In this document: positions 23,276 to 54,300 of the stretch, one piece after another | Layout: every line of letters begins with the position of its first letter | Position numbering within the stretch: the stretch's first letter is position 1 | Source of the DNA: a virus | Taxonomy: Duplodnaviria; Caudoviricetes | IMG/VR virus record: IMGVR_UViG_3300025084_000012 | Span: 1-64,000 of that record | Strand: one strand, 5' to 3' | DNA length: 64,000 nucleotides | Translations under genes and position numbers: made by a program | Notes under the pieces: model-generated | The model's database searches: none | What the model saw: only the letters and a program-made list of their open reading frames with translations | Told to the model about the DNA's origin: nothing

Positions 23276-23294
23276 GTTGATATATAAAGGAACA
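23276..23294 (+). promoter_or_regulatory. 19-bp TATA element, copy 10 (G variant)
   Basis: GTTGATATATAAAGGAACA; heads the replication operon. Confidence 0.85.
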
Positions 23295-23308
23295 GTAGGA
23301 TGATATTT

Positions 23309-26737: not shown

Positions 26738-27493
26738 ATGACAAAAGTAAACATGAACAGAAAACAGTTGTTGGACTTCCTATCGGAGTTCGGTAAAAAC
26801 ACAGAAGACTTACGTATCAAGTTCGATGATAAACACATGACAGCATCTGTTGCTTTCATCTCGTACTACTTATCGAAGACGAGAGAAGTAGTAGGAGTTG
26901 TGGGAGAAAGTGGTAACCTCGACATCACTGAACTGGTCAAGGTTCGACAGTTTCTCAAAGCAGCGAAGGATGATGTGGTGAACATCTCACAGACAGGTTC
27001 AGCAAAGACACTGAACATTACATGTGGGTCATCTAAGATTACTATGCCTACGTCTTCCACAATCATTAGTGCGGCTAAGGCTACACTCTTTGAGAAGTTG
27101 ATTGAAGAAGCCGAGACAAGTAAGTGGACAAAGTTCCACTCGTGTGACCTGAACGTATCAGGAACCATCACACTGGATGAGTTGTCTACTGTATCGAAGA
27201 TGAGAGGTATTCTCAACAGCAGTCCTATCTTCAAGGTTACAGCCAATGCGAGTGAAAATGAGTTTCTCATATCTTCGGGCAAGAGGCATGAAACCAAGTT
27301 GTTCACTACACTTGAGTTGCGTGATTCCACTGGTCCAGTTACTGGGAGCGTGAGTTCTACATTCGGTTCATGGCTGATGGATAACATAGCCCTTCTCGGT
27401 AAGGGTGAGGCTACCATACACATGGGTGAAACGACTATCATCGCTCTTGAAAAAGACGAAGACCTACTTGTTATCGTAGACCAAAGAGCGTGA
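26738..27493 (+). CDS. pcn: Probable DNA sliding clamp (PCNA-like, divergent)
   Basis: 251 aa with two internally similar halves and an alpha-alpha-beta pattern; between ATPase and polB in an operon with RFC. Confidence 0.6.
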   Translation: MTKVNMNRKQLLDFLSEFGKNTEDLRIKFDDKHMTASVAFISYYLSKTREVVGVVGESGNLDITELVKVRQFLKAAKDDVVNISQTGSAKTLNITCGSSKITMPTSSTIISAAKATLFEKLIEEAETSKWTKFHSCDLNVSGTITLDELSTVSKMRGILNSSPIFKVTANASENEFLISSGKRHETKLFTTLELRDSTGPVTGSVSSTFGSWLMDNIALLGKGEATIHMGETTIIALEKDEDLLVIVDQRA

Positions 27494-27497
27494 TTGA

Positions 27498-29906
27498 ATG
27501 ATTATCGACTGGTACTACCCTGCTGACTCCGACAACTTCGGACAGCCTAATCTCTACTTACGGACTCGTGACAAGGATGGTGTACTGCATGAAGAGCACA
27601 TATGGCCTGAAGACAAGAAGTACGTAAAACCACATTGTTGGATTCCACTAAACACACCTGAGTGGAAACTTAATCGTATGCTCGCTCGATACCCCAGTGC
27701 TCGGATTCATCGGAACATTCGTGCTGCTGGTATTGACAAGAAGACATTGATGAAAGTTGAGGTAGACAGACCTACTGACTTGTGGGACATCAAAGACGAG
27801 ATGCCTACTTATGAAGCAGACTTGAATTACCTTGACCAAGTGCTACTGAAACTCTATCCTGAGAAGTTACCTGAGTTCAAGCCACGAGTGTGGTATTTTG
27901 ATTTGGAGTGGGATGTCAAGGATGACTTCACATCCGTCATGGCTATCGTGGACAGTGACCTTGAGAAGCCTGTTGTATTTGCATGGGCTGATGAAGAAAA
28001 AACCAATTGTCCTTATCCAATACACATCGAAAGCGCAAGATACAGAACAGTGCGTGATGAAGATTACATACTACAAATCCACCCCTCCGAAGCGGAGATG
28101 CATGAAGCCTTCATTGATTTCTTACACAAGCGTGACCCTGACATTCTCGTAGCCCATGCTCTGATGTGGGCTGACTTACCGCACCTGATGCGTAGACTGA
28201 AAGACCCTGACCAACTTTCACCACTCGGTCAAGTGATTCGACCATTCAAGGGTAGAGATGGTTACAAGGACACTCAACAACCCATCAAGGGTAGACTGTG
28301 CTGGGACTCAGCGGCTCACTGGAAGAGTGGGAGTGGCTTTGAATCGCTATGGCAAAAGTCAGGACGTGGACAACTACCTAACCGTAAGTTGAATACTATA
28401 GCGGAGTTGCTTGAACTCGGTAGTAAACTGACAGAAGAGATTGAGGGTATGACTGTTCACAATGGTTGGTATGAATACTGGAGTGAGTTCGTAGATTATT
28501 GTCTTCTCGATACCACGTTACTGCGTGACATTGACAAGAAACTCAACGCCATTGATTTCTTCGTTGCTACTCAGCAATTGTGTGGTGTCTCGTGGGCGAG
28601 CACACACAAAGTCACTCGATACTTTAGAGGGCTTGTTGGTAGAAGGACGGATAAGAAAGCCAAGAGTGCTATCAACAATCGACGTGAACAACTCACTGCC
28701 GCCCACATTCCTGACCCTATAGCGGGTCGCCATGAGGGTGTAGCCATTGTGGACTACGCTTCTCTCTATCCTAACATCATTCTCTCCGACAATCTATCCT
28801 ACGAGACAAAGCGTGAGCAACCTACAGAGACTACCAAGACGCTGGGCGATGGCTCACACTGGTGTCAGAAGAAGAAAGGTCTACTCCCTGCTATCGTAGA
28901 AGAGATGCTTGAATTGCGTGCTGAATACAAGAGACTCATGCATGAGGCTACAGACCCTGATGAGAAACTCGGTTACGACATGATGCAAACAGCGGCGAAG
29001 GTTCTCGTTAATGCACTCTACGGTATGACTGGGATGAAGTTCCTTCAAGGTATGTGGGTAGACAACGACATAGCAGCCGCTATTACCCACAGAGGGCGTG
29101 AGTGTATTCACCATCTACTGGCTGAGAGTGAGGAGCAAGGTTACAAATCACTCTATGGTCACACGGATTCGGCTTTTATCCAAGTACCCTTTGACGAAGC
29201 AATATCACTCGCTGAGCACTTGACTGAGACTGCTAAGAACAAACTTGAGTTACCAACAATGGAAGTTGAACTTGAGGCTTACTTCGATTACTGGACTACT
29301 GCTCCAGTGAAGAACCGCTACTTTGGTATCAAGACGTGGCCTGAGAAAAGCAAGGGTGAGATGAAGATTGCTGGTTATGAAATCAAAGCCTCCAGTTCTT
29401 CACGTATAACTAAGCGCATTCAAAAGGTGGCTATGGAAATGATAGGCACTGGTGCTGATGAAACAGCCGTCACAGATGTACTGAGAGAGATAAGTCTCCA
29501 AGTCAAGAACGGTGAGATACCGATTGAGGACGTGGCTTGCTCGTCTCGATTGACGATGGACTTTAGGGATTACAAGAGCCTACCCGCACCTGCAAAGGCC
29601 GCTATGTACTACAACGAACACGTTGCCACTAACGCCGAAGAGCGATGGAGTAAAGGCGACAGTGTATCATGGATTTATGTCAAGGGTTTCAATGATGATG
29701 TCCCTGACTACTACACACTCAAAGGAGAGCGAGCGAAGGTAAACTTTGTTGCTTTCCGTGATAAAGCAGAGTTGAAGAACTATTCTATAGACTGGGACAA
29801 AGTGCTCAGTGTTATGGTTAAATCTAAACTCATGCGAATCTATGAGAGCCTTGACTGGGCGCTTGATGCTGCTTCGGGAGTGACAATGCCAAAGTCATAT
29901 TTTTGA
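27498..29906 (+). CDS. polB: Family B DNA polymerase with 3'-5' exonuclease
   Basis: FDLEW, YCLLD, DYASLYP, KVLVNALYG, YGHTDS, KNRYF. Confidence 0.97.
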   Translation: MIIDWYYPADSDNFGQPNLYLRTRDKDGVLHEEHIWPEDKKYVKPHCWIPLNTPEWKLNRMLARYPSARIHRNIRAAGIDKKTLMKVEVDRPTDLWDIKDEMPTYEADLNYLDQVLLKLYPEKLPEFKPRVWYFDLEWDVKDDFTSVMAIVDSDLEKPVVFAWADEEKTNCPYPIHIESARYRTVRDEDYILQIHPSEAEMHEAFIDFLHKRDPDILVAHALMWADLPHLMRRLKDPDQLSPLGQVIRPFKGRDGYKDTQQPIKGRLCWDSAAHWKSGSGFESLWQKSGRGQLPNRKLNTIAELLELGSKLTEEIEGMTVHNGWYEYWSEFVDYCLLDTTLLRDIDKKLNAIDFFVATQQLCGVSWASTHKVTRYFRGLVGRRTDKKAKSAINNRREQLTAAHIPDPIAGRHEGVAIVDYASLYPNIILSDNLSYETKREQPTETTKTLGDGSHWCQKKKGLLPAIVEEMLELRAEYKRLMHEATDPDEKLGYDMMQTAAKVLVNALYGMTGMKFLQGMWVDNDIAAAITHRGRECIHHLLAESEEQGYKSLYGHTDSAFIQVPFDEAISLAEHLTETAKNKLELPTMEVELEAYFDYWTTAPVKNRYFGIKTWPEKSKGEMKIAGYEIKASSSSRITKRIQKVAMEMIGTGADETAVTDVLREISLQVKNGEIPIEDVACSSRLTMDFRDYKSLPAPAKAAMYYNEHVATNAEERWSKGDSVSWIYVKGFNDDVPDYYTLKGERAKVNFVAFRDKAELKNYSIDWDKVLSVMVKSKLMRIYESLDWALDAASGVTMPKSYF

Positions 29907-29915
29907 GGTGACAAA

Positions 29916-30059
29916 ATGAAAAAGACAAGACAAACAACACTGGACGAATACGGACTGACAACTGATGGGCGAAGACAAACCAAACTCACTGAGTTTGGAA
30001 TGACGTTTGAAGTTGATATAAAAAGGAACAGTAAAGATGAGGTTGGTGAAGAAGAGTGA
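29916..30059 (+). CDS. 47-aa microprotein with two PIP-box-like motifs (not in ORF track)
   Basis: GAGGTGA SD; MKKTRQTTLDEYGLTTDGRRQTKLTEFGMTFEVDIKRNSKDEVGEEE; stop overlaps the next GTG. Confidence 0.7.
   Translation: MKKTRQTTLDEYGLTTDGRRQTKLTEFGMTFEVDIKRNSKDEVGEEE
30012..30030 (+). promoter_or_regulatory. 19-bp TATA element, copy 11 (one mismatch)
   Basis: GTTGATATAAAAAGGAACA. Confidence 0.7.
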
Positions 30060-30421
30060 CAGAAGAAGAGACTTTCAAAATTAAGTGTGCTAAGATTGCA
30101 GGTAAGATTGTGAACCTACTTGCTGAGAAGAATGCTCAGTATGGTGACAGTGCCTTTGACCCTATCCGCTTCTTCAGCGACCTTCCTCCTGATGCTGGCT
30201 TAAGAGTTAGGATTGATGACAAACTCAGTAGACTCATGCGTGGAAACGATACAATCGAGTCTGACGTTGATGTGATTGAAGACCTGATTGGTTACTTCAT
30301 CCTCTTACGCCTGACGATGGATGATGAGGAAACAGTTGAGGCATACAAGGACTCAGAACTTAACAAGTTGAAGCCACGTTATCGTTTTCCTCTGCCTAAC
30401 AAATTTGGTAAGGAGTGGTGA
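30056..30421 (+). CDS. Nucleotide-modification-associated domain 1 (Nmad1/DUF1599-like) protein
   Basis: KNAQYGDS...RIDDKLSRL...DLIGY. Confidence 0.75.
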   Translation: MTEEETFKIKCAKIAGKIVNLLAEKNAQYGDSAFDPIRFFSDLPPDAGLRVRIDDKLSRLMRGNDTIESDVDVIEDLIGYFILLRLTMDDEETVEAYKDSELNKLKPRYRFPLPNKFGKEW

Positions 30422-31383
30422 GAATGCGCTGGAATCCTAACGAGGAAGAAGATGTTCCTTACAAATATCCTGAGATGCTTGAGTCATACGATAAGAGTCT
30501 ATACAACTGGCAACCAGAGATGAGTGACAAGATACTTCGTATATCGAAGTCGTCACTCGGTACATTCGATTTTTGTCCTAAGCAGTATTACTTTGAGAAG
30601 ATACTGGGGATGAGAGGTGAAGAGGTAGACCACCATATTCGTGGTTCTAACGTCCACGACGCAGTAGAATGGTTTTGGAAAGCATCGACTGAGAGCCTAC
30701 CAGCGGTGAACGAACTCATCGCTGAAGGTAATATCAACGTAGCAAAGAAGGAGTTGCGTAAGTCATTACCCAAGCCTCCTACGCCCTACGTTTTTGGTGA
30801 AGAGCCACAACTCAACCTGTATGTAGACTGGCAATTTGAGCGCTTACTGCATATGCAACATAATCCAAAAGACTGGTTCCCTATCGCTAATGAAGCAGAA
30901 GTTCACTCAAAGCGAATCGTAGTAGCCAGTGACGGAACAGAAGTACCGATTCACATGAAGGGTTACATTGACCGTATCTTCATTGATGAAGACCATACTG
31001 GAAGTGTTCTGATGGAGTTGAAGACTGGTAAGTGGGTTCCTCGTAAGCGTTCTCAGATGCGTGCAGAGATGCAGTTCTATCGTATGATGTTGGAACACAG
31101 TCCTCATATCGAATACCTACCAGTTGTTGGCTGGGGTTGGCAGTTTCCCGGTGGGGGCATCAACGGAGGCGACGGCCCTCTATGGGATTACGAGAGCGTA
31201 AAAGGCCCGGGTGGTCGATACGCTCCTAAGACAGTAGAGAAGAGACTTGTACGATTAGTTGATGCACACTTGAACGACGATTTCCCTGCTGAGGCTCACG
31301 AGGCTAAATGTGCTTGGTGTGACTTCATGGAAATGTGTCCAGCGTGGATGGGTGATTTAGCGATTGACCCTGAAGATATGTGA
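30415..31383 (+). CDS. Cas4-like PD-(D/E)XK exonuclease
   Basis: SKSSL..F..CPKQY, GYIDRI, ELKTGK, Q..FY, CAWCDFMEMC (Fe-S ligands). Confidence 0.85.
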   Translation: MVRMRWNPNEEEDVPYKYPEMLESYDKSLYNWQPEMSDKILRISKSSLGTFDFCPKQYYFEKILGMRGEEVDHHIRGSNVHDAVEWFWKASTESLPAVNELIAEGNINVAKKELRKSLPKPPTPYVFGEEPQLNLYVDWQFERLLHMQHNPKDWFPIANEAEVHSKRIVVASDGTEVPIHMKGYIDRIFIDEDHTGSVLMELKTGKWVPRKRSQMRAEMQFYRMMLEHSPHIEYLPVVGWGWQFPGGGINGGDGPLWDYESVKGPGGRYAPKTVEKRLVRLVDAHLNDDFPAEAHEAKCAWCDFMEMCPAWMGDLAIDPEDM

Positions 31384-31392
31384 GATGATAAT

Positions 31393-31692
31393 ATGGATAG
31401 AGAAGGACTGTTCGTTGCTTGTAGACTCTTAGAGGCTGCACTGGGTAAGATATGGCCTTCCTACAATTTTAGAGTTGAGTCATCCCTTCTCTCAAAACGA
31501 ATTAAAGTTCACACCACATCAAGGATATTAATTGAGAATTATCATGAGGATATAGGTGACGTGGCAAGTTTACTCTTTGAAGTCATCATACATCCATCAA
31601 GGCTGAAGTTAGAGCACATCAACGACACCTTAGACGATGTTATCACTAAAGTGTTAGAACGAGTCACACTCATAGAAAACGTAGAGGACTGA
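31393..31692 (+). CDS. Hypothetical protein
   Basis: ORF in the gene train. Confidence 0.6.
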   Translation: MDREGLFVACRLLEAALGKIWPSYNFRVESSLLSKRIKVHTTSRILIENYHEDIGDVASLLFEVIIHPSRLKLEHINDTLDDVITKVLERVTLIENVED

Positions 31693-40956: not shown

Positions 40957-42381
40957 TCACTCACCCCTCTCTGTAAATTTAGCAGTCTTGCTACCACCGA
41001 CTTTTTCACCAGTAGCAACGCCGACCACACCTCTACCCATACCTCTCCCTATGATGAAACCATCGCCTGATACACCGTGTCCAACAATCTCTGTTACGAC
41101 GACTGAAACAATTTCAACATCGCCAAACAGAGCCATGTTCTTCTCAAGAATCTGCTCGATGCTATCAACTTGGTCACCAGAATTTTTAGTACCTTGAAGT
41201 ATACCCTGTAGAACGCCTTCAACGCCACTGTCTACACTCAGGAATACAAGGTCAGCGACGTTTTGAGAGAATTTATGTCTTACTTCGACTAAGATTTTTC
41301 TTTGTCCATTATACTCGATAATCATACCGGGTCGCAAGTCCCAACTATTCGGATGACCTGCGCTCGTGAGGTTACCAAGCATGACTGCATTTGCTTTCAG
41401 TATGTTACGACCAGTCTCTCTTGCTTGTTCGTTACTACGAACAGTGAAGTCACCAACAATCTGTGGTTCCTCTAACACCTCACCAGCCCGACCTGACTGT
41501 TTTTCTGAGTTGTTTACTTCAGCAAACGCAGTATCGTTTACAGCCGTTGGTAGACCCTCTACAATTACTCTGTTCGATATGTTTTCAATTGGGTTATTGA
41601 TTGCTGGGCCAGTACGAGCATAGTGGTCGATAAATCGACTCTTCTCCTCAAACTGGAATGGGACGTAAAGCAAGTTACCAAACCTGTCAAAGTGGATGAC
41701 TCGGCCATCATGACGGCTAATGAACCGTAGAGCATCAACAAGCGTAATACCATGAAAGTCTACACCAACGAAACTGTTGCTGTGTAGTCTTCTATCAACT
41801 TGAGAATTGCTTGGACTCAATGGCAGTGCGATGTTTACAGACGTAAGAGAATCAGCGATGTCTCTGCTGATGCGTATAGCCAAGTCTGTTGTTCTTAAGC
41901 CAGCATCAATTGGTTGTCCGAAGTGAGCCTGTGTTTGAGAAAAACCCAGTTTACTAAGTGTCTTACCCTTCATGTTTCTTACAGCAAAAGTGGTTCCAGT
42001 GCCACTATTAACAACTGAAGATGTTCGCAGTCTTTCACTATCGACACCCTTACCATAAAGCAGCACTGGTTTGTTTTTATCGCTGTCACTGGTAATGCTT
42101 GAACCTAAGTAAACCACAGAGCCTTCGTAGTTTCGCCCATGCGTGCCTGTGTGTTTTAGGATAACAGAATCCTGTAGTTCTGTCATGGTGTAAGTGTGTG
42201 GTGTAGAGACAGCATAGGTGGTGGTTTTGCGTTGCCTCACCGTGACCTTCTTCTCCAAGTTCTTCTGTGGTGTATACTCACCAAGATGAAGGGCGTTGTC
42301 CACAAACTTTGGTTTACGCACCGCCTTCATCACAACATCCGTGTCGGCTGTTGCTCGCTTGTCCTTGAGTAAACCCATCAT
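40957..42381 (-). CDS. Putative tail hub/baseplate protein
   Basis: ALRFIS..DG..IHFDRFGNL.Y; WDLRPG..I. Confidence 0.55.
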   Translation of the reverse strand: MMGLLKDKRATADTDVVMKAVRKPKFVDNALHLGEYTPQKNLEKKVTVRQRKTTTYAVSTPHTYTMTELQDSVILKHTGTHGRNYEGSVVYLGSSITSDSDKNKPVLLYGKGVDSERLRTSSVVNSGTGTTFAVRNMKGKTLSKLGFSQTQAHFGQPIDAGLRTTDLAIRISRDIADSLTSVNIALPLSPSNSQVDRRLHSNSFVGVDFHGITLVDALRFISRHDGRVIHFDRFGNLLYVPFQFEEKSRFIDHYARTGPAINNPIENISNRVIVEGLPTAVNDTAFAEVNNSEKQSGRAGEVLEEPQIVGDFTVRSNEQARETGRNILKANAVMLGNLTSAGHPNSWDLRPGMIIEYNGQRKILVEVRHKFSQNVADLVFLSVDSGVEGVLQGILQGTKNSGDQVDSIEQILEKNMALFGDVEIVSVVVTEIVGHGVSGDGFIIGRGMGRGVVGVATGEKVGGSKTAKFTERGE

Positions 42382-45300
42382 GCATCACCACTGTGGTCTG
42401 ATGTATTGAACGATACATCTTCCTTATGTCCCTTGCTGTGCAACGATTGACTGAATCTTGGTTTGACGGTGTAGTCTTTACTCTCACCAGTTCTTCTTGG
42501 AGCATCACTCTTGAAGTGCTGTAATGTGTTTTCACTGATGACAAGTCGAGTAACAGTGCTCTTCAGTGTCGTCTTATCAAAGCCAGTAACCTCTGTTCCC
42601 GGTAACTTCGGCCCTTTCGATACTGGCACAGTGTCGCTACTGCTCTCAACAAGATACACTGGTTGGTATGGCGCTGATGTGTTAGGATTGGTAGCACGCA
42701 TGTATGACCCGCTGCTTGCTCTACCGTTTGGAGTTGAGTAGGTAAACATTCCATACTTACCACCAGCAGTAGCAGTGAACGCAGTGCTACCGTTTTGCTT
42801 GCTATCAGTGTGCAAAGCCAATGCTGGTCTGAATACCGCTATGTGTTGGTTGTCGAGGAGTCGTATAGGTCGCAGCATAAACTGCACTGAATCATCAGCC
42901 ATGTTTGTCTGACTGGCTACTGAACTTGTTGTTTGGTATGGGTTGCTTGTCTTTGTACCACTCATACCACTTCGTCCCCAACCTGTATCATCGAATGGAC
43001 TGGCGAAACTACGAGCCTCCAAGATGTAAGTTCCACCCATAGGCTTGAAGTTACTTGTGTGGCTGAATCGCATCACACCACCATGAGGCTGAGCAGCGAA
43101 GGACAAGGCTGTCAGGTCGTAGTCGCCAAGCGTTTGAGAGCCTGACTGCATACCACCATGTAGCACAACTCTCTGACCCACACCTCTGTTAGTGTGTAGA
43201 CTGTGTGCTTCTGAGTTGATGGCTACCATGTTGGCGTTGCTGCCAGTCAAGGATTCTACGGTGTCTCCGTCGATACCAATTCGTGGTGACGAGCGAGAAA
43301 CAGCATCCTTGTGAACCGATGTCCCGCTGATGGATTCTACCTTGTCGCTGACTGTTGCTTCAGGTTTGAGTAGTCCGTCCTCATCGACTTCCAACCGAGC
43401 ACTAATACCTCTGACAATTTCACTTGGTTGTAGTGCATCGTTTCTTGGTCGAATCAAGCCTTGACCGAATGTAGGTTCAGCAGTGTTGCTTGATAAGACA
43501 ACACCTGAGTTTTGGTACACTGCACTGAGTTCAACCAGTCTGTCCTCATTGAATTGTGTTGGGAATCGTACACCACGTCCGTTACCCATGTCTCCTACTC
43601 GTAGTGCGTTGGTAGGAGCAAACACATCGACCAACGTGGTGTCTGCATTGTTGTTACCAGTGTTCTTTCTACCACCAAAGCGAGGTATTGTAACCGTTGG
43701 AGATGCTAATACTGCACCCGATGATGTATCTGAGTCAGCGGCTATTCCCTTGAGATTGAAGATAGGCTTGTTATTGTTCCATATACGGGCGTAAGGTGTT
43801 CTACCATTAGTTCTATCATACTCGTATGCATCTCCAGCATCCCATGATGGATTGATACCAAAACTACGAACAGGCATACGCCTAATATCCTCACCACGAG
43901 TGTTACCCCACCAGTCGATGAGATAATACGATACAGCATCTTTGTAGAAGTTCTTACCCATACCAGCGGAATCGCCCCACCAATCTCGTATCACAGTGCT
44001 GGCATTCTTCAAAGTGCGTAGAGCGCATCCAAATCCTCTCGTCATTCGTCGTCCATCGCTGTAACGCACCTGCCATTCGTATTTGTCGGCATTCAGCATA
44101 CCAGCAGCAGTTGTTCCACGCTCAAGAATACCAACATAGGTAGTCGGTAGGTTGGTACTGCTTTGTGTGCTGTCTCCGCCAGCGTAAAGCCACCCGTTAC
44201 TTGTTATAGTTTCATACTCAACCAGTGGCCCTGCTTTGTAACCAACAGCAAGATTGCTTGCACCTGAGTGTGTGGCTTGCTCTTGGAATGCTCGCATACC
44301 ATAATGACCCCATTGAGGTCTGTTCCAAGCCTGTCGTAGTCCGAAACGATAACCAAACGGATATGTTCGTATACTGCTAAGTGAAGTAGTGCTCACACCA
44401 TTAGCAACCGCATAACTACCGTCATCATCGTCATCTTTCCAATGTATACCAGCATTATGTGCGTAACTTTGTGGAACGTGCCACGCTGCTGATGACATAG
44501 CGTAACCGTCTAATCGACTAATCAGTGGCCCACCACGACTGCCGCAAGGCCAGTAATTGGTAAGCATGTAAGCCCCACCTTGAGCCGACAAACCACTGAT
44601 GGAGTTGATGTCTGTACCGCTTAGAATTTCACCATCACCATCAAGGTATACCTTGTCACCTGCCGCAAGATTACTCTCAAATATCTCAGAGTAAAGAGTG
44701 ATGTCTGCACCACTAACGCCGTTTACTCTACCAAGAACTCGCCCATTAGCAAACAAGACATCTTGGTTGCTCACCCCAGTAACTGTGTCACTCATTGTGA
44801 TAACGGTAACAGTTGTAGTTGTAACCGAACTAACAGTCCCAGCAAGTGCTTTAGGTGGAACAGGTGTCTTCATTTGTAATGTAAGTGGGCCGTGACTTGC
44901 TGTATAATTGACATCTTGGTAGTGAATTGTCTCAAAGTGCTGTGGCATACTGTTGTATGCGGCGTTATTAACGGCTCTGTCTAATGTATGATTGTCACCG
45001 TTTGTAATCCAAGTTCGGCTGGCATCTGAGTAGAATGTATGAGGCCGACCCAAGTTAGGACTCCAAGCACATAGATATGAGTCAGTTGAGAAAAGACTGT
45101 TTGTGTCTCTCGTTCCTGTAAGCAACTGACTGAGATTTTTGGTCAAAACACTTTCGTTATCTTTAGTGAAGATGTCGTTTACTGATTTTGTAGAATATGA
45201 TTTACTCAGTGTTAGTTTTGTGCCATCGGCTATGGTAACTCCCGTTGGTAGATGAAACACATCAGGCTCATTCATGGTCGCTGAACTGTGACTCAAGCCT

Positions 45301-48300
45301 TGCCGAGTTGTATAACTAAACGATACAGTTTTTCCCGTAGAAGAGTCAATGTATTGCAGTTTTTGTTCGTAATACGGTTTTTCAGGGAACAGAGAAGCGT
45401 CATCAACTTGGATAGCAGTCGCTGAAGAATGCGCTCCGACGACCTTACATGTAGGAGCGAGGCTTACGTTCTCCATAATCTTGGAGTAGATGTCAGGATA
45501 GATACTTGGGTAACCAGCCAACGTCAATTGAGCAGCGACTGCACCATAACTTGCTCGACAGAACTGATAATAGTTGTCGATACGATACAAAGAAAGGTGT
45601 CTGAAACCAACAGCCGATGCGTCAGACGGAGTGCCTTGATGCATAATACTCCACCACGGTATGCTTGTAGTAAAGCCGGGTGTAGCGTCTTTGAACGCTA
45701 CGTCAGGAGTTGTCGGGTGATATGGATGACCTCGCCTTGTAAACGAAGGACTTTCCGACCCTTGAACTCCAAGTGGATTATAAAGCAGCATTGGTGGAAT
45801 GTTAGCCAACTGACTACCGTGGTCAGGGTCGTGGTCAAGGATGACCTCATTCAAGAATATCTCACAGCCTCTTACGTCAGCCAGCGTAGCCTCAGCAAGA
45901 ATAAGCGTGACACCACCAATGTTAGCACCGTCTGTCAAGGTTGAGTGTCGTTCTTCGTCGTACTTGATACCGATGACGAGACTCACTTGCTGACTGGTAA
46001 GAACAGCAGTGTTGTTTGAAGGAGTGGAAACATCGGGTAGAGTAGTTGCTGAAGAGTTGTTCAAGTGGAATCCAGTTACCTGTTGCGAGCGTAAGTTTGG
46101 CTGAATGACGATTTGATACGCACCAACTTCGGCAGGGTCAGGGAAGTGGTTAGCCTGAGTATAGTTACCACCAGCCTCAAGGACAATCGAGTGACCACCA
46201 GCCTTGTTCATATCTCCAGCAGTACCTTTTGACGCAAGTATACCGTAGCCGTCATACTTGATTTTTGTCTCAAACATTAGCGTAAATGCACCACCGTGAA
46301 TGTCGCTTGGGCCTGACGGATTGGCTGTGAGTGAACCTACTCTCAGTGCTGGGTTGAGTGGGAATAACCTGTCTTTAACTGCCGTAGGAACAGAGGTCTG
46401 ATTGTTTGTTGTACCGTCTACCTCGACCAAGTTGTCAGCCAGTGTCGTATAATCTTCGTCACGCACTAACGCTAAATGGTCGCTGTTCGCTTTTTCGTAT
46501 AATCCTTGATAGGCTGGATGCGCCCAATGACCCGGCATCATTGGCATGGTAGCATTGACAAAGTGATGACCCATACGAGGTATAGGCATTGGAGTGAGTT
46601 GTGGTCTACTGTATCTTGAGTGAATAGTTGTTAGTGCGTTACCAGTAAAGTATTCTGTATGAGCCATGTCAGGACTGTTACCGCTTACCTCGGCATGGTC
46701 ACGCAGTCGGCGTGCAGCAAATATACGAGCACTACCAGCAGGGACGTAGTATGACGGTGTGATGGTCAATGCACCAACAGCAAAATTATCAGCCATAAAT
46801 TGAGTAAAATCAATGTCACCAACAAGGTCGTCAAACACATCTGAACTTATTGACTCATACGAAGCAATAACGCTTTCACCTGTTGCATTGCTGATTCGTA
46901 TGAATCGTCGGTTATCGGCTACTTCTTGTGTTCCAAAGCCAGTAGAGAATATGTTTTCGTTGATAGTAGCGCTCGCTGTAATTGAGGTCGAAGTGTAGGA
47001 ATCTACTGTAAGGGCTTGATTAACCACACCAGCGGAGTGAGTGTAAGTTGTCGGGAACTTTTCAGTGTGGCTGTGACCCATCTTTGTTATATGGAAATAC
47101 AGTGCTCTGTCTTGCTGCTCATAGGAACTGCGTAGTGTGTTGTTACCAGTCGCCGTCACCCAGCCGTCACGAGTAGACTCAGGGAAGTTCTCGTCTTGTG
47201 AGATGTGCTCCCATCCTACTTCGTTCATAGTTGGCCCTTTTCTTGGAGATTTGACCACGTTGTCAAACAGATGACCAAGATGTGTTGCTCCCAAATCAGG
47301 GTGAATCATACCACCGTCACCAAATGTTTCTGTTTGATATGCTTGAATTGGGTCGAATCCACTGCGAATAAGAATGTTGCCGGGAATAGATTCGGGGTCA
47401 GGCAATTGAATTTCAAAGTTCGGAGGTATGCCGCTGTTTGCAGGGACAGGCTGTAGACCACTTGCTAATCTTGTCGATGCAGGTTTATATGCTCTGATGA
47501 CGATACCCAACGGCGAACCACCTTCAAGCGTATGCACTTGTCCTGTGTCATCTACAACACTAATATCTTCAAACTGTATTTCTTCGTTTGGTATCTCAAG
47601 TACGTTACCGATAGCAATAGGGTGCTCTTTCGCTAACGTAGGGTGCGCTATCTCTTGTGCCTGTAGAACTGGCATCATAGCCGAGTTTGTTGTCTCAAAA
47701 GAAAATCGTATGTTACCATACAACTTCTCACCCATCTGATGAGCAGTTCCAGCAGCGCCTCCTACTACTGCATCTTTAACACGAGTAATCCACGGCACTG
47801 CTCCTAAACCACGAGCATTGGATGTCGGCATAGTGACTGTCCCACCATCCATTCGTTTCCATACAACATGCTCTGTACTGAAGTTTTTGTGAGGACTGCG
47901 CTTTAATACATCGTAAGCATTGACATCACCAGCCCAAAAGATACCTGATTGAGTAGCATGAGTGGTTGAGGTCATCTGCGTCGATGGGTTGGAATTTGTA
48001 ATAAAATCAGTAGCAAGGTTTCTGTTTGCTATACCCGCTGCTTCCTTATGATTTAGAATACCTACGTTCTTGTCAATGTCGAAGAACAAATCACCAGTTT
48101 CAGCAAGACACGGCTCAGCGTTTGACAAAGATGTGTCTGCTGAAATTGAGCCGTGTAAATGTATCTGAGCGTTGAATGGGCTACTATCTAACACTCCGCT
48201 TGCAGTGTAGTCACTAATGGTAGGAGGCGCTGTGTTATCGGCAATCAAAGCCTCTACGTTAGGCCCAGCGTTAGCAGGTGCTACAAAGCGGTCACTGTGG

Positions 48301-51300
48301 TGGAATCGTTCGTCCCATTGGGTAGTGCCTCCAGCCAACAAGTAATCACCTGTAGAGGTGTAGTTGTCTCTGTCCTTTCTTGCCACCAAACTAAGTTCGC
48401 CCTCGTGGGCTACAACCAACAAAGCACGAGAGTAAGTGCCTTGAGCATGAATCAACTCTTTCTGTATCTCAGGCATGTCTCGCATAACTGGTGGGTTGTT
48501 AAACTGAGCACCGTCAGCCCAGCCTACAACATATGTACCAAACGCTATTGGGTCATCAACGCCGTAAGATACAGAGTCAGCCTCACTATCACCATCACTT
48601 GGGAAGTTAGTAAGACTACGACCCGGTATATCTGTTGGTGGCATACTCTCAGGAGAGTTAGGTAGAGGTGTTGTGTGAGGTAGATGACCAAGTACGTTAG
48701 CACAAGATGAAGAGCCGCCATACGGTGAAAATCCAAGCATAGAGTGCCAAGCCCCAAGACCAGCGGAGAAACCACTGTCTACTGATAATGTGTTTAGATA
48801 CGAATATCGCTCTCCATGCCATCCTACTGCTCCGACTGGCTTTGTTCTGTCTATTGCATCAGCGATACCGCTAAAGTGCGTTGCCCCAATACCATAAGTT
48901 GTAAAGCGACTACTTGCTGAGTTATCCACCCCAATAGTTCCACTCTTTGACCATATCCATACTGTTGTTCCAACAGTGGGATTACCAGTTGTGTTTACAG
49001 CAGGGTGTGGGAGCGTTACACCACCTACATTTGAACCACTGGTGCTATTGAAAGCCGTTGAAGTATTTGCATAAATGCGCCAAGCCTCTCCGTCTTCAAA
49101 GGCTTTTAGACCTGTAAGTTTGTTATTTGATAAGTAGAATCGACAAAACAAATCTGTACCATCTCTATAGAACGCACGACTGTGATAAGAAGCCCACGCT
49201 GATGATTTGACTGAACTACTTACAGCACCACCGTAGTCGTGATTAGCCTCTGTTCGCAACCAACCTGACGCTGGAACACGATTAGCATTTGCCTGTTCAT
49301 CTACACCAGCACCAGCCAAAACTACGAGGTCAATGAAGCAATCACCACTCTTCAAATTTGATGCACTTGATGCCGTGTTACCAAGTGTATTATGAATATA
49401 GGTAATAGTCACACCCGAGTTTGAAACATTAGGGGCGGGGTTCACTGTAACAGTGCCTCCCACTGAATCAACAGAAGCAACTACGCTGTTGGCTTGTATA
49501 CCAGTTCCACTTATGGATTGACCTGCTTGTATTGTAGCGGGGAATGTTCCAGTAACGGCTATGGCTGCAACACCGCTGGTAACATTTGCAGTGAATGTAA
49601 CGGGTGCTGTAACGGTTCTTACCATAGGAGTGGTGCTTACCACGTTGTTTGAGTAACCATGACCAGCAACATCAGTGGCTCCAGTAACCGTACCAACTGG
49701 TGTTGCTCCGCCGTAAACGTCGTTTCGGATATTTGTTGTTCTCGCTTCTAACCAACCGTATCGGTCTTGACGAGTAGAGTTGCCCATTGATGGCATGAAC
49801 GTACCACCAATAGCCTTGAGAGCACCTTTACCGGGAAACGTATTGATAGCAGCGCCCAGTAAGCAAGCCAACTCTTCTCCGTTCTGACAACGTGTAGCGT
49901 CTACAACAATGTATTCGTGGTCTACATCGCCATGAACTAATGTTTCTGCTGCAAAATCAGGTGATGAACTGTTATCGTTAGAGTAAAGCATTCTTGTAGC
50001 CAAAGTTCCAGCGACTCTAAACGCAGTCTTGTTAATTTGAGTGGCTCCAGTAGCAAGCGCAACTCTTAGGCTATCGCTTTCTCTTGGTGGGTTCATAGTA
50101 ATTTGATTATCCATCCAAGAACCACCGGGATGGTTGCCATTATCCATGTGCCAACACAAATCAGAGTTCTTGACCATACCTCCGCCATAGAACATAGCGT
50201 GTCTACTGGGTTGAACGACAGCGTATGCTTTTGCTACGTCATCTGTGAAATTGGAAGCAGTGCTGTAGTGTTCAAAGGCGTTGGTAGTGAGCGAGTTACC
50301 GTAGTTTCTACCATTCTCAGGTCGCTCTCGCAAAAATACGGTATCGGGTATACCAACTGGTGACTCCCAGTTTAACACCTGTCTGTAATGGAATCGGTGC
50401 TTAGCCAACTGTGTAGCCGCACGCTCAGGCATATATTCACCTGTACTATTTTGAATGTGATTTGGTAGGAATGGTCTACTGTTTGTCATATTAGGAACTC
50501 TTGACCAAGTGTTACCAGTGCTTACAGCGTGACCCGGATGAGGCTCAAAGGTATTTATTGGGCTGGTTACTTCTTGTGTTAGTGGGAATGCTTGTCCCGG
50601 CCCGAAAATGATGTAGGTTGTTTTGTTTTCTACACCGTCACGATGGTCGTTATAGCGAGCCGTTGGATGTGCGAAGCGCAACACCATAGGAGATGGCACT
50701 TGCATATGGACACCAGCAGCATATGGAGCAAGGTTAGGATGTGTTGAACCTACACCAGCCCATGCTCCTCGCTTTAGGTCTTGAGAAAGAATGTTGTCTT
50801 TGTTGTAAACTGGTGGGTTGATGCTACCATGATGTTGCTTTAACAGTGCAGTTGCTGGGAAGAAAGCCATGATAGCGTTGCAGTCAAGCGTAGAAAAAGA
50901 GGAGAGAACTTCATTAGCATTCTGAATACCAGCAGAACCTGTTGGCCCGTTAGCATACGGATGTGTATTATGCTCCGAGTAATCGTTCTTAGTCCCGTCA
51001 TTGATGTCTATTGTAGCACCACTAAAGCCACCACCAAAGTAGAGTGGTACATAGTTATCAGGCCCGTCACGAGCACCAGTAAAGTGAATGATTGGTAAGG
51101 AATGCACGCTACCAAGAGAGCGTTTACCAGCAAACAAATATGCTCTTTTGTCAGCGTATTTTTGAATAACAAGTGTTTCGGCTGGACTCGGAATTGCTGA
51201 AGGCCATTTTGAACTTCGTAAGTTTTCGTCAGATAATTGGCTGAATGCCTTTTCAGAAACAAATCCACCACTGTTTACATTTTGACCCTCTGTAACCGCT

Positions 51301-54300
51301 GTTTCGATACCGTAACTAATAGATGTTTTATTTCCAAAAGAATCTACTCTTGTGTAATCATGAGTTTGCCCGTTTTCATAGTGATTAACAGATGCTTCTT
51401 GACCTGCTGGTTTAGCAAAATGCCACATTTCATTATCGCTGTGTAAAGCCATTATAGAAGCAGAGTGAACATTAGTCATTTTTAGCGTTGGATTATCAAG
51501 ATTTGGTAGAATCAAATCACCACTTGATTCGATAAAGTTTTCACCAATCAAATTCTTGCGCCATGTGTTGGTGTTAATAGGATTGTTTTGTGAGTCTACA
51601 ATGTTTGGCGTAGCGGTGTTCGCATTATGACCTCTACCCTTTGTTGTAATTTGTATGATTGTCGAAGGAATGTAACCACAGTTTATGCTACGACCTTTAG
51701 CGATTAGACCATCACCTATAGGTCTTGTACCATCTCCTCCTACTGTAACTCCGTCACCGTTTAGTTTTAGACTCTCGACTTCACCATATTCAATATGACT
51801 GGCTCTGATACCAACGTCTTGTGAAAGATTTGCTGTGAAGAAGTTCGATATAGACTCGATGTTACCTTTTGTATTGTAGGCTTTGATGCTGATTGATTCT
51901 TCTGTAATTCCCCATTCACCAAAGGTGCGACCATCAGCGGCGTACATGTCGGTGCAATCAAATGTAGTTCCCTCGTTAGGGTCTGATAAATTGATAGCAG
52001 CGGCAGTTACGGCTGCCATTAATTCATCTGTAACAAGTGTAGTCCAATTAGCGACTGGAGTTATCAAAGCGGAAATAGCATCTGTTTCTTCACCAACAAC
52101 ATAGTTACCGATAGTGAGTTTTGGTGCAGTGCTACTGTGAGTGTGAATTTTATGCTGAGAACTGTATGTGTCACCAGTTACACCGTGGAATACATGTGTC
52201 CCAGTTCTACCAGCATTGTTGTCTCTTGTACGGTGAGTATAGGAAAACATGTTACCCCAGTTACCGCTAAGTGAGTTAGAGAACGTAAACGTCGCATTTG
52301 TACCACCTTGACCGACAACAGTAATTGTTTCGCCGTTCGTATAACTACCTTCACCAAGAGAAGTAATCACAACAGCAGTAACTTCTCCACTACCGTTTGT
52401 GTCGATACTTAGTGTCATCCCGCTACCATCCCCAGTCCCTGTAGCCACTGCTCCTGATAGACCAGCACCATATCCTGAACCAGCGCTTAGTGAACTTACT
52501 TCGCCTATATCGTTGTAAGGGTCAGATAAGTGAATAACACCGTTTTCAACAGGGAATCCCATGTAACCCAGCAAGTCGTGGTGAGGGCAATCATCGTATG
52601 GGGCATAGAGTGTAACTGTAATTGTCTTATCTGTTGTATTGTAAACAACATCTGTGTTGTAAGAAGCGTTGGGAGCAGGTGCTCCTCGCCACAAGTTACC
52701 TCTCCAATTTGCAAGCGCTGCGTTATCAGGTATGGCTGGGAATCGACCTGTTGGGTCACTTATCCCATGCATGTGCTTACCGATGGTAAATCCACCTTGC
52801 GAGCAGTCTTTGTGATTAAAGTAGACGACAATTTCATTTTCTAACGTCTTTGGTAGAAGCGTATTATCTAAAGCGAATTTTTCTCCTATGTTCTTGTAGA
52901 TGTAGCGTATACCATGCTCTACTCCTCTGTGGTCTTGCAGTCGCATAGCATACATAGATGAATCACCTATACTGTCAGGAAATACCTGAGCAGTAGGAAT
53001 GTGACCAGTATAAGAAGTAGCAGGGTCTGTGTTCGATACTTTTGTGAGTTGGCCGTAATCATTAGCAAGTTTATCATTACCCTTTCTACCAAAGCCCCAC
53101 TGACCAGCATCGGGTGCAAAGCCGGGAATACCAGCAGAAACAAGGCCACCGAAGTTTATTCGTGCTACAGCGTTTGTTCCTACACGTAGACCCTCTGTGA
53201 AAGAAGTGTTGAAGCCTTCAACTTCAAGCGACTCTGTGTTTAGTGTGTTGTGATTCTGACCGCTACCGCTGTGTGCTGATACGGCACGCAGTCTTGGTGT
53301 AGTAGTCTCATCGTGATTATTGGAAAATTCACCTTTTGACGCAACTACTTGCATTGATTCATCAGGCTGTGTGTACTGTCTTAAAGAAGTAATTGGAGCA
53401 AAGGGTCTACCGTGTTTATTAAGCGGCATCGGTGCTGGGTGCATGTTTTCTCCACTCAGTTCATCAGGCAAACACCAAAATGTTCTGAACCGACCACCGT
53501 GACCAATCATAAATTCAGGCTTGTAAGGAACTTGCCCTTTGCTGTTGTCGAGCCACACCGCAAAGTTACGACCAGTAGCACCGGGAACTGTACTGTGAAT
53601 AATGACTGAAAATCCTTCTTCGTTACCATCTATGTCTCTAACAACTCGACCAAGATGAGCACGAACGTAACCCATGTGTGTTCCTTTATCGTGCGATTCA
53701 AACGCTTTATCTTCATCCCACCATACAACAGGGTCGTGAGTAGAACCAGTTGTAGCAAAATCAGCCTCACCAGCAATCTTTACGGGGTATTGTTTGTTTG
53801 TGTTGTTACTGTGTGTACGCCCTTTCTTTGCAGCAGCCTGATTTATCATACGCACAACTTCAGTAGCCGCTGCTTCAACGCTCGTGATACCGTCTCTAAC
53901 TGCAACTTCACCCAAGTCGATGGTCATTCTTCTCGTAAAGTCCATCTGAGTCCACTGAGGTAAATGCTGTAGTCTTGTTTCACTCATGTTAGACAGGTCA
54001 AGAGCCTCTGAACGAACGCCCTTGAGGGCAAGGAATGCTGGAATAACACGAGTCCCATCGGGTGTATCAAACAGTGTAGACGTTTCTTCGTTTCTTCTGT
54101 TCATGAAGAGTGTGAAACTACCTTTTCCATCACCGCTTACATTGGCAGTGGCTAATGGTAGAATGTGGAGGCTTCGGTCAGAGATAAAGATGGTATCGCC
54201 TTCTTCATAGGAAGTGTCTCCTTGTCTGTTTATGACAGCAGTAACGACTGCTGCTCCTGAGATAGTAACATCGACGGTCATACCATGACCTTGACCGTTT

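What the first reader, a model, noticed from the sequence alone, without database searches (positions are those of the whole stretch)
29904..30059. Unannotated 47-aa peptide with two tandem PIP boxes right after polB
A perfect GAGGTGA SD precedes MKKTRQTTLDEYGLTTDGRRQTKLTEFG... The motifs RQTTLDEY and RQTKLTEF match the archaeal PCNA-interacting pattern QxxLxx(F/Y) and lie 15 residues apart. PolB itself ends ...MPKSYF without a canonical PIP box. The peptide could be a detached clamp tether, a bridge between clamp subunits, or a p21-like competitor that strips host enzymes from host PCNA and diverts replication to the virus.
Basis: partly seen in the sequence, partly recalled or inferred. Interest (0 to 1): 0.8.

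Follow-up and report, generated by a model that had tools for sequence, protein, structure and literature searches.

The report
Viral microprotein of two clamp-docking motifs
A virus of marine archaea encodes, right after its DNA polymerase gene, a real and conserved 47-residue protein that is little more than two copies of the short motif replication enzymes use to dock onto the sliding clamp PCNA, so it most likely works by occupying a clamp's docking pocket, though binding is untested.

Summary
Window 29916..30059 (+) is a 47-aa ORF with a GAGGTGA ribosome-binding site overlapping the PolB stop codon. It carries two R-Q-T-x-L-x-E-[YF] motifs 15 residues apart.

It is a real gene. Homologues of 22-99 aa occur in about 90 IMG/VR stretches and 87 protein clusters, nearly all in magrovirus replication modules. 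Only the motif is conserved, and its codons vary synonymously.

The motif fits the PIP box at positions 1, 4 and 7 and resembles the host's FEN1 C-terminus (QTSLFSF). The same motif sits in other small viral proteins.

The upstream 251-aa ORF is a very divergent viral PCNA. PolB keeps only an aromatic tail where the halovirus HF1 PolB has a canonical PIP.

The peptide's C-terminal half is a translated promoter copy plus the next gene's start signals. A near-complete sister-clade genome lacks the motif, so the gene is accessory.

Best reading: a PIP-only clamp-pocket occupant, somewhat more likely aimed at host PCNA than at the viral clamp. Tether and ring-bridge readings are weak. Binding is untested (co-fold gave no verdict).

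The scan noted this family before on another genome (e1-5843953).

The parts
29905..29911 (+). Shine-Dalgarno GAGGTGA, overlapping the PolB stop codon (TGA 29904-29906), 4 nt before the ATG
   Evidence: Sequence. A GGTGA-type SD is kept in front of the homologous ORF in relatives.
29916..30059 (+). 47-aa microprotein ORF (stop TGA 30057-30059)
   Evidence: Homologues appear. No Pfam or PHROG family matches.
29928..29951 (+). PIP-like motif 1, RQTTLDEY (residues 5-12)
   Evidence: This copy is present in about half of the family (43 of 87 clusters have two motifs).
29973..29996 (+). PIP-like motif 2, RQTKLTEF (residues 20-27); the invariant copy of the family
   Evidence: Alignment A2 shows Q, T and E invariant, and R and L in at least 90% of sequences. 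All motif codons vary synonymously.
30012..30036 (+). Copy 11 of the 12-copy promoter-like element GTTGATATAWAAAGSAACAGTAA; read in the peptide's frame it gives VDIKRNSK
Evidence: One search aligns all 12 copies.
30056..30421 (+). Next gene (121 aa, phrog_1485, function unknown). Its GTG start overlaps the peptide's stop (GTGA), and its SD (GGTGAAGAAGA) encodes the peptide's VGEEE end
27498..29906 (+). Family B DNA polymerase ending SGVTMPKSYF. It has no Q/L of a PIP box but keeps a conserved aromatic C-terminal pair
   Evidence: Pfam DNA_pol_B 1.4e-44. C-termini of 80 relatives are. The homologous tail of halovirus HF1 PolB is a canonical PIP, SQTGLAAFC.
26738..27493 (+). Virus-encoded PCNA-fold sliding clamp (251 aa), very divergent
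   Evidence: AF2 model pLDDT 91.4. Foldseek top hits are archaeal PCNAs at E 1e-12. There is no Pfam hit. hhalign against host PCNA profiles gives only 33% probability.
23276..23300 (+). Promoter-like element copy 10, heading the run RFC-S, 458-aa, 333-aa, PCNA, PolB, microprotein
   Evidence: RFC-S is supported by Pfam AAA/DNA_pol3_delta2/Rep_fac_C hits. That this run is one operon is inferred from the spacing of promoter copies.
31393..31692 (+). 99-aa protein upstream of the primase. Its relatives carry the same RQTTLD[DE]F[FG] motif in a loop; the window's copy has lost the Q (TSRILIENYH)
   Evidence: Alignments A3 and A5. In the AF2 model the motif starts a loop with block-mean pLDDT 57-73.

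Best explanation
The ORF encodes a stand-alone PIP-box microprotein. It is translated from its own SD as the last cistron of the clamp-loader / clamp / PolB transcription unit.

Its functional part is the N-terminal 28 residues, which hold two R-Q-T-x-L-x-E-[YF]-G motifs. These are proposed to insert into the PIP pocket under the interdomain connecting loop of a PCNA ring, as cellular PIP peptides do.

The protein has no other conserved surface. It therefore cannot deliver an enzyme, and would act by occupancy, competing with PIP-bearing clients. The second motif would raise avidity or rebinding.

The target is somewhat more likely the host (Poseidoniales) PCNA than the viral clamp. In that case the peptide would be a p21/TIP-like jammer of host replication and repair, while the virus replicates with its own divergent clamp and a PolB whose tail is no longer a canonical PIP.

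Shown here: the gene is real, the motif is under selection, its genomic contexts, and its likeness to the host PIP.

Inferred: binding, the target, and the inhibitory outcome.
For: 1. The gene is real. It has an SD and ATG. Twenty-nine of 80 PolB-anchored IMG/VR loci carry it directly after polB, in all three frames relative to polB. It falls in 87 protein clusters, all unnamed.
2. Only the motif is conserved (A2). The family consensus is [TS]RQT[TK]L[ED]E[FWY]G[FML]. Every motif codon varies synonymously.
3. The motif matches the PIP definition QxxhxxAA at positions 1, 4 and 7, and resembles the archaeal consensus peptide KTTQSTLDSFFK (PMC4929162). Host FEN1 C-termini in 23 Poseidoniales genomes are QTSLFSF, QSTLFDF, QPTLFDF and similar, again with one aromatic.
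4. It behaves as a portable linear motif. It sits in a low-confidence loop of the roughly 100-aa protein upstream of the primase. It also occurs in an 81-aa CxxC protein after PolB, at the C-terminus of a phrog_11184 protein, and at the N-terminus of a membrane/lipoprotein-like protein.
5. It is virus-specific. There are 92 IMG/VR stretches, most with recognisable neighbours lying in magrovirus replication modules. A stricter pattern gave 4 hits in 185,579 prokaryote genomes, of which 2 are QTTF variants.
6. Points favouring a host target:
- The viral clamp is PCNA-fold but very divergent. Its consensus C-terminus is LLxxxDQRG, whereas host PCNAs end YFLAPRV.
- PolB ends P-K-x-Y-[FW] where the PCNA-less halovirus HF1 PolB has SQTGLAAFC.
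- A 98%-complete sister-clade genome has PCNA and PolB but no such motif, so the peptide is accessory rather than part of the core holoenzyme.
7. The rest of the window peptide is accounted for by overlapping DNA signals.
Against: - No binding data of any kind exist.
- Position 8 of the PIP box is Gly, not aromatic.
- The same motif in folded viral replication-module proteins argues that the virus's own replisome uses it. That would point to the viral clamp as the hub.
- The gene is co-transcribed and translationally coupled with PolB, rather than placed in an obvious early host-takeover block.
- Whether the viral clamp still accepts canonical PIPs could not be judged. The profile alignment was too weak to map pocket residues.
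- The motif also precedes a lipoprotein-type signal in one protein family, which is odd for a PCNA ligand.
Confidence: 0.42

Rival explanations
1. The peptide is a ligand of the viral clamp. It binds the virus's own PCNA as a regulator of the viral replisome. Possible roles are gating access of PolB and other motif-bearing viral proteins, stabilising the ring, or helping loading or unloading.
For: - The gene is the last cistron of the RFC / PCNA / PolB unit and is translationally coupled to PolB.
- In another magrovirus group the 23-aa version lies within 1 kb downstream of RFC-S.
- Other small proteins of the viral replication module carry the same motif.
Against: - A pocket competitor on the virus's own clamp would reduce processivity unless tightly controlled.
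- PolB and RFC subunits of this virus carry no such motif.
- The viral clamp lacks the LAPR-type C-terminus of canonical PCNAs.
- A sister clade with the same clamp and PolB does without the motif.
Confidence: 0.25
2. The peptide is a detached polymerase tether. It is the split-off PIP tail of PolB and still works as a non-covalent PolB subunit linking the polymerase to a clamp. Alternatively it is joined to PolB by read-through or frameshifting.
For: - HF1 PolB carries a canonical PIP exactly at its C-terminus.
- The ORF directly follows polB, and in the window and its closest relatives it is in frame with it (note e1-5900887).
Against: - Frames relative to polB are 0, +1 and +2 in different relatives. 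L008 has TAA instead of TGA. In L005 the peptide's frame is closed just upstream of its ATG.
- Every copy has its own SD and start codon.
- PolB keeps its own conserved 10-residue tail at the position of the HF1 PIP.
- Nothing outside the motif is conserved that could hold PolB.
- Other groups place the microprotein away from PolB.
Confidence: 0.08
3. The motif is a linear motif for a different hub, not PCNA. Candidates are the viral RadA-like ATPase, the primase, MCM or SSB. The likeness to PIP boxes would then be convergent.
For: - Position 8 is Gly.
- The extended consensus (Arg at -1, Thr-Thr, Glu at 6, then G-Phi-x-F) is tighter than any generic PIP definition.
- No binding evidence exists.
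Against: - The motif matches Q, aliphatic and aromatic at the PIP spacing.
- It is close to the host FEN1 PIP and the HF1 PolB PIP.
- It lies in a clamp / polymerase neighbourhood.
Confidence: 0.12
4. The motif is part of a secretion or membrane-targeting signal (the n-region of a lipoprotein or Tat-like signal peptide), and the short ORFs are remnants of such signals.
For: P0096-P0100, P0035, P0105 and P0109 have one or two motifs directly in front of a hydrophobic stretch and an LAGC-type lipobox. P0099 lies in a 91.5-kb magrovirus contig.
Against: - Most family members, including the window's, have no hydrophobic segment.
- The motif also occurs internally and at C-termini of soluble small proteins.
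- In cellular genomes it was found only on two MAG contigs: a 2.2-kb Poseidoniales contig of unknown origin and a 24-kb contig with an RFC-S gene nearby.
Confidence: 0.03

Closest known systems
C-terminal PIP peptide of p21 (CDKN1A), and disordered PIP proteins such as PAF15/p15
   Same: A short disordered sequence whose PIP box (p21: QTSMTDFY) occupies the PCNA pocket and competes with polymerases. The viral motif begins the same way (RQT..) and is followed by a hydrophobic stretch that could pair with the interdomain loop (inference).
   Different: There is no homology. The viral protein is nothing but the motif or motifs: it has no CDK-binding domain, no second aromatic residue, and a tandem arrangement. 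It is archaeal-virus encoded. Inhibition is untested.
TIP, the Thermococcales inhibitor of PCNA (64 aa; PMC4929162)
   Same: A small archaeal protein that binds PCNA and blocks PCNA stimulation of PolB and Fen1 in vitro. A putative N-terminal PIP has been proposed for it.
   Different: TIP is cellular and restricted to Thermococcales, and has a folded PH-like half. No sequence relation was detected (no family, PDB or Atlas hit).
C-terminal PIP tails of archaeal and haloviral family B polymerases (HF1 PolB ...SQTGLAAFC)
   Same: The motif type is the same, and the position is immediately after the polymerase thumb/C-terminal region.
   Different: Here the motif is a separate gene with its own SD. 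It is duplicated, and PolB retains a different conserved tail (PKxY[FW]).
Clamp-binding tails of phage T4 gp43, gp33 and gp55, and phage-encoded beta-clamp-binding inhibitors of Staphylococcus phages (from my own knowledge, not checked here)
   Same: Viral proteins that dock on a sliding clamp through a short terminal peptide. In the Staphylococcus phages a small phage protein blocks the host clamp.
   Different: These involve different clamps and motifs, and those proteins have additional domains.

Membership tests
PIP box (QxxhxxAA PCNA-interacting motif) | Gln at position 1 | tested here: met
   Q is invariant in the C-proximal motif of A2. It is present in every motif scored (there by construction of the search pattern).
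PIP box (QxxhxxAA PCNA-interacting motif) | Aliphatic residue (L/I/M) at position 4 | tested here: met
   L in 119 and I in 8 of 127 motifs. Both window motifs have L.
PIP box (QxxhxxAA PCNA-interacting motif) | Aromatic residue at position 7 | tested here: met
   F 66, W 42, Y 19 of 127 motifs. The window has Y12 and F27.
PIP box (QxxhxxAA PCNA-interacting motif) | Second aromatic residue at position 8 | tested here: not met
   G in 105 of 127 motifs, including both window motifs. FF or YF does occur in the roughly 100-aa protein variants. Host FEN1 also lacks position 8, because it ends at position 7.
PIP box (QxxhxxAA PCNA-interacting motif) | Lies in a disordered or terminal, accessible segment | tested here: met
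   The peptide is 22-70 aa with no other conserved part. In the roughly 100-aa protein the motif starts a loop whose 10-residue blocks average pLDDT 57-73.
PIP box (QxxhxxAA PCNA-interacting motif) | Physical, motif-dependent binding to PCNA | not testable with these tools
   This needs ITC, pull-down or a confident co-fold. See Tried and rejected.
PCNA inhibitors of the p21 / TIP kind | Sequence or fold homology to p21 or TIP | tested here: not met
   No Pfam, PHROG, PDB-sequence or Atlas match. Any likeness is in proposed mechanism only.
PCNA inhibitors of the p21 / TIP kind | Inhibits PCNA-dependent synthesis or processing | not testable with these tools
   A biochemical assay is required.
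PolB C-terminal PIP tail (fused) | Motif is part of the polymerase polypeptide | tested here: not met
   It is a separate ORF with its own SD. Frames relative to polB are 0, +1 and +2 in relatives, and the stop is TGA or TAA.
Lipoprotein / Tat-type signal peptide | Hydrophobic h-region and lipobox after the charged n-region | tested here: not met
   Absent from the window peptide and most homologues. Present only in the P0096-P0100 type of protein.

The most novel reading that the evidence does not exclude
Magroviruses run a two-clamp strategy. Their own highly divergent PCNA, served by a PolB with a private aromatic tail, is insensitive to canonical PIP peptides. A family of PIP-only microproteins jams or sequesters the host's canonical PCNA and so shuts down host DNA replication and repair. 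Relatives with the motif on a membrane anchor or on small replication proteins would take part in this. This would be the first natural virus-encoded PIP-peptide inhibitor of an archaeal clamp.
Probability: 0.3. Interest if true: 0.8.

Novelty: new variant of a known kind. Interest (0 to 1): 0.62.

Why it matters
PCNA is the hub of archaeal and eukaryotic DNA replication, and PIP peptides are the classic way to block it (p21, and engineered anticancer peptides). A natural, widespread viral gene consisting only of PIP boxes would show that viruses of the most abundant planktonic archaea manipulate a sliding clamp with a minimal peptide.

The two candidate clamps give a clean test of how a virus can insulate its own replisome from an inhibitor of the host's. 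One is the host clamp, with a canonical LAPR C-terminus. The other is viral and highly divergent.

The finding also adds an overlooked, conserved microprotein family to magrovirus genomes. Gene callers and family databases leave it unnamed. It is also an example of a coding sequence whose tail is simply a translated promoter.

Tried and rejected
- **Co-fold.** Complex prediction of the viral PCNA (A1) with the peptide (A2) gave no verdict (score 0.01, controls not run). It is not used as evidence either way.
- **RNA evidence.** No RNA holder is listed for window 27400-31400.
- **Database searches on the peptide.** All were empty: Pfam and PHROGs, a PDB sequence search with profile A2 (only a chance TTLKEFG hit), ESM Atlas, and tblastn against GenBank phage records (one chance hit).
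- **Fold of the roughly 100-aa motif-bearing protein.** The model is decent (pLDDT 83), but Foldseek found no PDB match at E <= 0.001.
- **Mapping PIP-pocket residues of the viral clamp.** hhalign of viral against host PCNA profiles reached only 33% probability and did not cover the C-terminus. Only the differing C-terminal consensus could be noted.
- **Read-through or frameshift fusion to PolB.** Rejected. Frames differ among relatives, L008 has TAA, and the frame is closed upstream in L005.
- **DNA-level repeat (iteron) reading of the two motifs.** Rejected. Third codon positions vary while the residues stay.
- **Host signal-peptide reading.** Rejected as a general explanation. A stricter motif pattern gave 4 hits in 185,579 prokaryote genomes. 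Two of these are QTTF variants. The other two lie on MAG contigs: a 2.2-kb Poseidoniales contig of unknown origin, and a 24-kb contig with an RFC-S gene nearby that looks like a misbinned virus.
- **A private C-terminal motif shared by other viral replication proteins.** None was seen.
- **Literature.** Searches found no description of such a peptide in magroviruses.
Full report
**1. What is there**

The window is the replication arm of a magrovirus-like tailed archaeal virus. Its gene order and content match the Magrovirales description (PMC10768690; PMC5434244).
- PolB occupies 27498..29906 (Pfam DNA_pol_B 1.4e-44) and ends ...SGVTMPKSYF.
- Its TGA stop (29904-29906) overlaps GAGGTGA (29905-29911).
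- Four bases later an ATG opens a 47-codon ORF, 29916..30059.
- Residues 5-12 are RQTTLDEY and residues 20-27 are RQTKLTEF, so the two Q residues are 15 apart.
- The ORF's stop overlaps the GTG start of the next gene (GTGA at 30056-30059).

The pattern is not a chance feature. A strict form of the motif occurs only twice among the window's ORFs of at least 40 aa, both times in this ORF. No other protein of the 79-kb contig has a PIP-like motif at a terminus.

**2. It is a real, conserved gene, and only the motif is conserved**

PolB retrieved 80 IMG/VR loci at 39-93% identity. Twenty-nine of them have, directly after polB, a small ORF with one or two copies of RQT[TK]LxE[FWY]. These include viruses whose PolB is only 42-44% identical.

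The ORF lies in frame 0, +1 or +2 relative to polB in different lineages. L008 has a TAA stop instead of TGA. Each copy has a GGTGA-type SD, often made of PolB's last codons. It is therefore an independently translated gene, not a read-through or frameshift extension.

In the 21-sequence alignment A2, lengths run from 25 to 69 aa. The only invariant or near-invariant columns are R-Q-T-x-L-x-E of the C-proximal motif. Every motif codon varies synonymously: CAA/CAG, four Thr codons, six Leu/Ile codons, GAG/GAA and TTT/TTC. Selection therefore acts on the peptide and not on a DNA repeat.

A profile search of 5.8 billion proteins found 87 clusters of 28-99 aa. All are marine, and all are unnamed or 'hypothetical' with one chance Pfam entry.
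- 44 clusters have one motif and 43 have two.
- The spacing is 13-15 residues in 36 of the 43 two-motif clusters.
- The extended consensus is [TS]-R-Q-T-[TK]-L-[ED]-E-[FWY]-G-[FML]-x-(F).

**3. Where the motif lives**

A degenerate DNA pattern for QTTL[DE]EFG hit 92 IMG/VR stretches. I placed each hit against the window's proteins.

| Context | Hits | Notes |
|---|---|---|
| Directly after PolB | 29 | |
| Slot of a roughly 100-aa protein between the PD-(D/E)XK nuclease and the primase | 17 | |
| Within 1 kb after RFC-S | 7 | 23-aa ORFs, in a group with split PolB |
| About 4-5 kb upstream of RFC-S | 11 | 22-30 aa |
| Contigs too short to place, or chance hits | 28 | |

A stricter pattern (with the Arg codon) hit only 4 stretches in 185,579 prokaryote genomes.
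- Two are QTTF variants. One of these is the C-terminus of a Nitrososphaerota topoisomerase VI-B.
- The other two lie on MAG contigs: a 2.2-kb Poseidoniales contig of unknown origin, and a 24-kb contig with an RFC-S gene nearby that looks like a misbinned virus.

The motif is thus a virus-specific, portable linear motif. Besides the stand-alone peptides it occurs in four other settings:
- Inside the roughly 100-aa protein (RQTTLDDFF, RQTTLDEFG). There it starts a loop with block-mean pLDDT 57-73 between two strands of an otherwise confident small alpha/beta domain. The fold has no PDB match.
- In an 81-aa CxxC protein after PolB or upstream of PCNA.
- At the C-terminus of a phrog_11184 protein.
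- At the N-terminus of a membrane/lipoprotein-like protein encoded in a 91.5-kb magrovirus contig.

The window's own roughly 100-aa protein (31393..31692) has lost the Q.

**4. Why the motif is read as a PIP box**

The PIP motif is QxxhxxAA, and the archaeal consensus peptide crystallised on PCNA is KTTQSTLDSFFK (PMC4929162). The viral motif has the Q, the aliphatic residue and the first aromatic at the right spacing. It also has Thr at position 3 as in the consensus. It lacks the second aromatic, which is usually Gly.

I fetched FEN1 from 31 Poseidoniales genomes, the presumed hosts. The 23 readable C-termini end in GQTSLFSF, QSTLFDF, QPTLFDF, QSTLLDF and similar. The host's own PIP therefore also has a single aromatic and is very close to the viral motif.

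The nearest cultured-virus PolB (halovirus HF1, 23% identity) ends ...DAAIEGQSQTGLAAFC. That is a canonical PIP exactly where the window's PolB, after the shared LDAA anchor, has SGVTMPKSYF.

**5. The clamps**

The 251-aa ORF upstream of PolB has no Pfam hit, but it folds with pLDDT 91.4 into a PCNA protomer. Its top Foldseek hits are archaeal PCNAs at E about 1e-12.

It is very far from host PCNA. The profile-profile probability is 33% with 18% identity. Host PCNAs end with the canonical Y-F-L-A-P-R-V, whereas the consensus of the viral clamps ends L-L-x-x-x-D-Q-R-G.

HF1 has no detectable PCNA gene, so its PolB PIP presumably serves the host clamp. Magrovirus PolBs all end in a conserved P-[KRA]-x-Y-[FW] or AYGWW tail without Q or L.

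My reading, which is inference: with a private clamp, the polymerase tail drifted away from the canonical PIP, while the canonical motif lives on in separate small proteins.

**6. Anatomy of the rest of the peptide**

Residues 33-40 (VDIKRNSK) are the in-frame translation of copy 11 of a 12-copy promoter-like element, GTTGATATAWAAAGSAACAGTAA, at 30012-30036.

The terminal VGEEE is the SD plus GTG of the next gene.

The C-terminal 15-20 residues, which are conserved only among the closest relatives, are therefore explained by overlapping DNA signals.

The previous promoter copy is at 23276, in front of RFC-S. That makes the microprotein the last cistron of an RFC-S / 458-aa / 333-aa / PCNA / PolB unit. 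The operon is inferred and there are no RNA data.

**7. Mechanism**

A protein that is only a PIP motif cannot tether anything. The minimal family members are 22-37 aa. The most economical mechanism is therefore occupancy of a clamp's PIP pocket in competition with clients, as for p21 or TIP.

*For a host target:*
- The motif is a host-type PIP.
- The viral clamp and the PolB tail are both non-canonical.
- The gene is dispensable in a sister clade. A 98%-complete genome with PCNA and PolB has no such motif anywhere.

*For the viral clamp:*
- The gene's operon position.
- The motif's presence in other small proteins of the viral replication module.

I put about 0.7 on PIP-type clamp binding. 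Of that, slightly more than half goes to the host clamp.

Bridging two pockets of one ring is unlikely, for two reasons. Half the family has one motif. And 13-15 residues, part of which would form the 3-10 turn, should not span the roughly 45-55 Å between pockets. That distance is from general knowledge and was not computed here.

**8. Comparison and novelty**

The peptide works like the p21 PIP peptide or TIP, but it is homologous to neither. It meets the PIP definition at three of the four motif positions. Literature searches found no description of such peptides in magroviruses or other archaeal viruses.

The scan has noted the same family once before on another genome (e1-5843953), and analogous PIP-only microproteins in giant viruses (e1-5568293, e1-5520255). 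Those notes are not independent evidence.

**Verdict.** This is a new variant of a known kind (a PIP-box clamp ligand in the form of a stand-alone viral microprotein family). Interest is about 0.6. Binding and target remain to be shown.

Noticed in passing
window 857, 1627, 4504, 6122, 6561, 10279, 11886, 15615, 19014, 23276, 30012, 33782 (+): Twelve near-identical copies of GTTGATATAWAAAGSAACAGTAA, a TATA-containing promoter-like element. All are on the + strand and each heads a gene run. The copy at 30012 lies inside the microprotein ORF.
   Followed up: partly
window 29877-29903 and the PolB C-termini of L001-L080: All magrovirus-like PolBs end in a conserved aromatic tail (PKSYF, PKTYW, PKAYGWW, PRPATYW). 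It sits at the position where halovirus HF1 PolB has a canonical PIP (SQTGLAAFC). It may be a private clamp-binding tail.
   Followed up: partly
window 31393-31692; L009:7678-7986, L090:4762-5061 and others: A roughly 100-aa protein family upstream of the primase has a small alpha/beta fold with no PDB match. It carries RQTTLD[DE]F[FG] in an exposed loop. The window's copy has lost the Gln.
   Followed up: partly
L081:6001-6435 (TARA scaffold, 91.5 kb magrovirus contig); P0096-P0100, P0035, P0105: A 144-aa protein has two N-terminal RQT[TK]LxEF motifs directly followed by a hydrophobic stretch, an LAGC lipobox and IPDPPS. It could be a membrane-anchored carrier of the clamp motif. It is encoded upstream of PC4-like and DNA ligase genes.
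   Followed up: partly
L088:1843-3306 (-), Nitrososphaerota MAG: A topoisomerase VI subunit B (Pfam Topo-VIb_trans 4e-56) ends in ...ERQTTFEEFG. This is a PIP-like C-terminus almost identical to the viral motif.
   Followed up: no
L035-L068, directly after polB (e.g. L060:6346-6573): In the clade with about 40% PolB identity, the slot after polB holds a 70-96-aa coiled-coil ORF ending ...N-x-[IL]-x-x-P-T-[KRM]-V-G. It is followed by a 39-aa Cys-rich ORF. No PIP-like motif is present.
   Followed up: no
L016:6352-6603 (complete 106.9-kb genome with terminal repeats): The 83-aa ORF after polB carries two degenerate motif copies (VATKLTHF and SQTQVEDW). It looks like a decaying or divergent version of the tandem peptide.
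   Followed up: no
window 42378-60557 (-): A single 6059-aa ORF lies in the structural arm.
   Followed up: no
L012:3002-3220; L116:5236-5478; P0071: A 73-85-aa CxxC protein has tandem motifs (RQTTLEEFGFEF and GQTKLTDFY) and a basic C-terminal tail. It is placed either upstream of the viral PCNA or directly after PolB.
   Followed up: no
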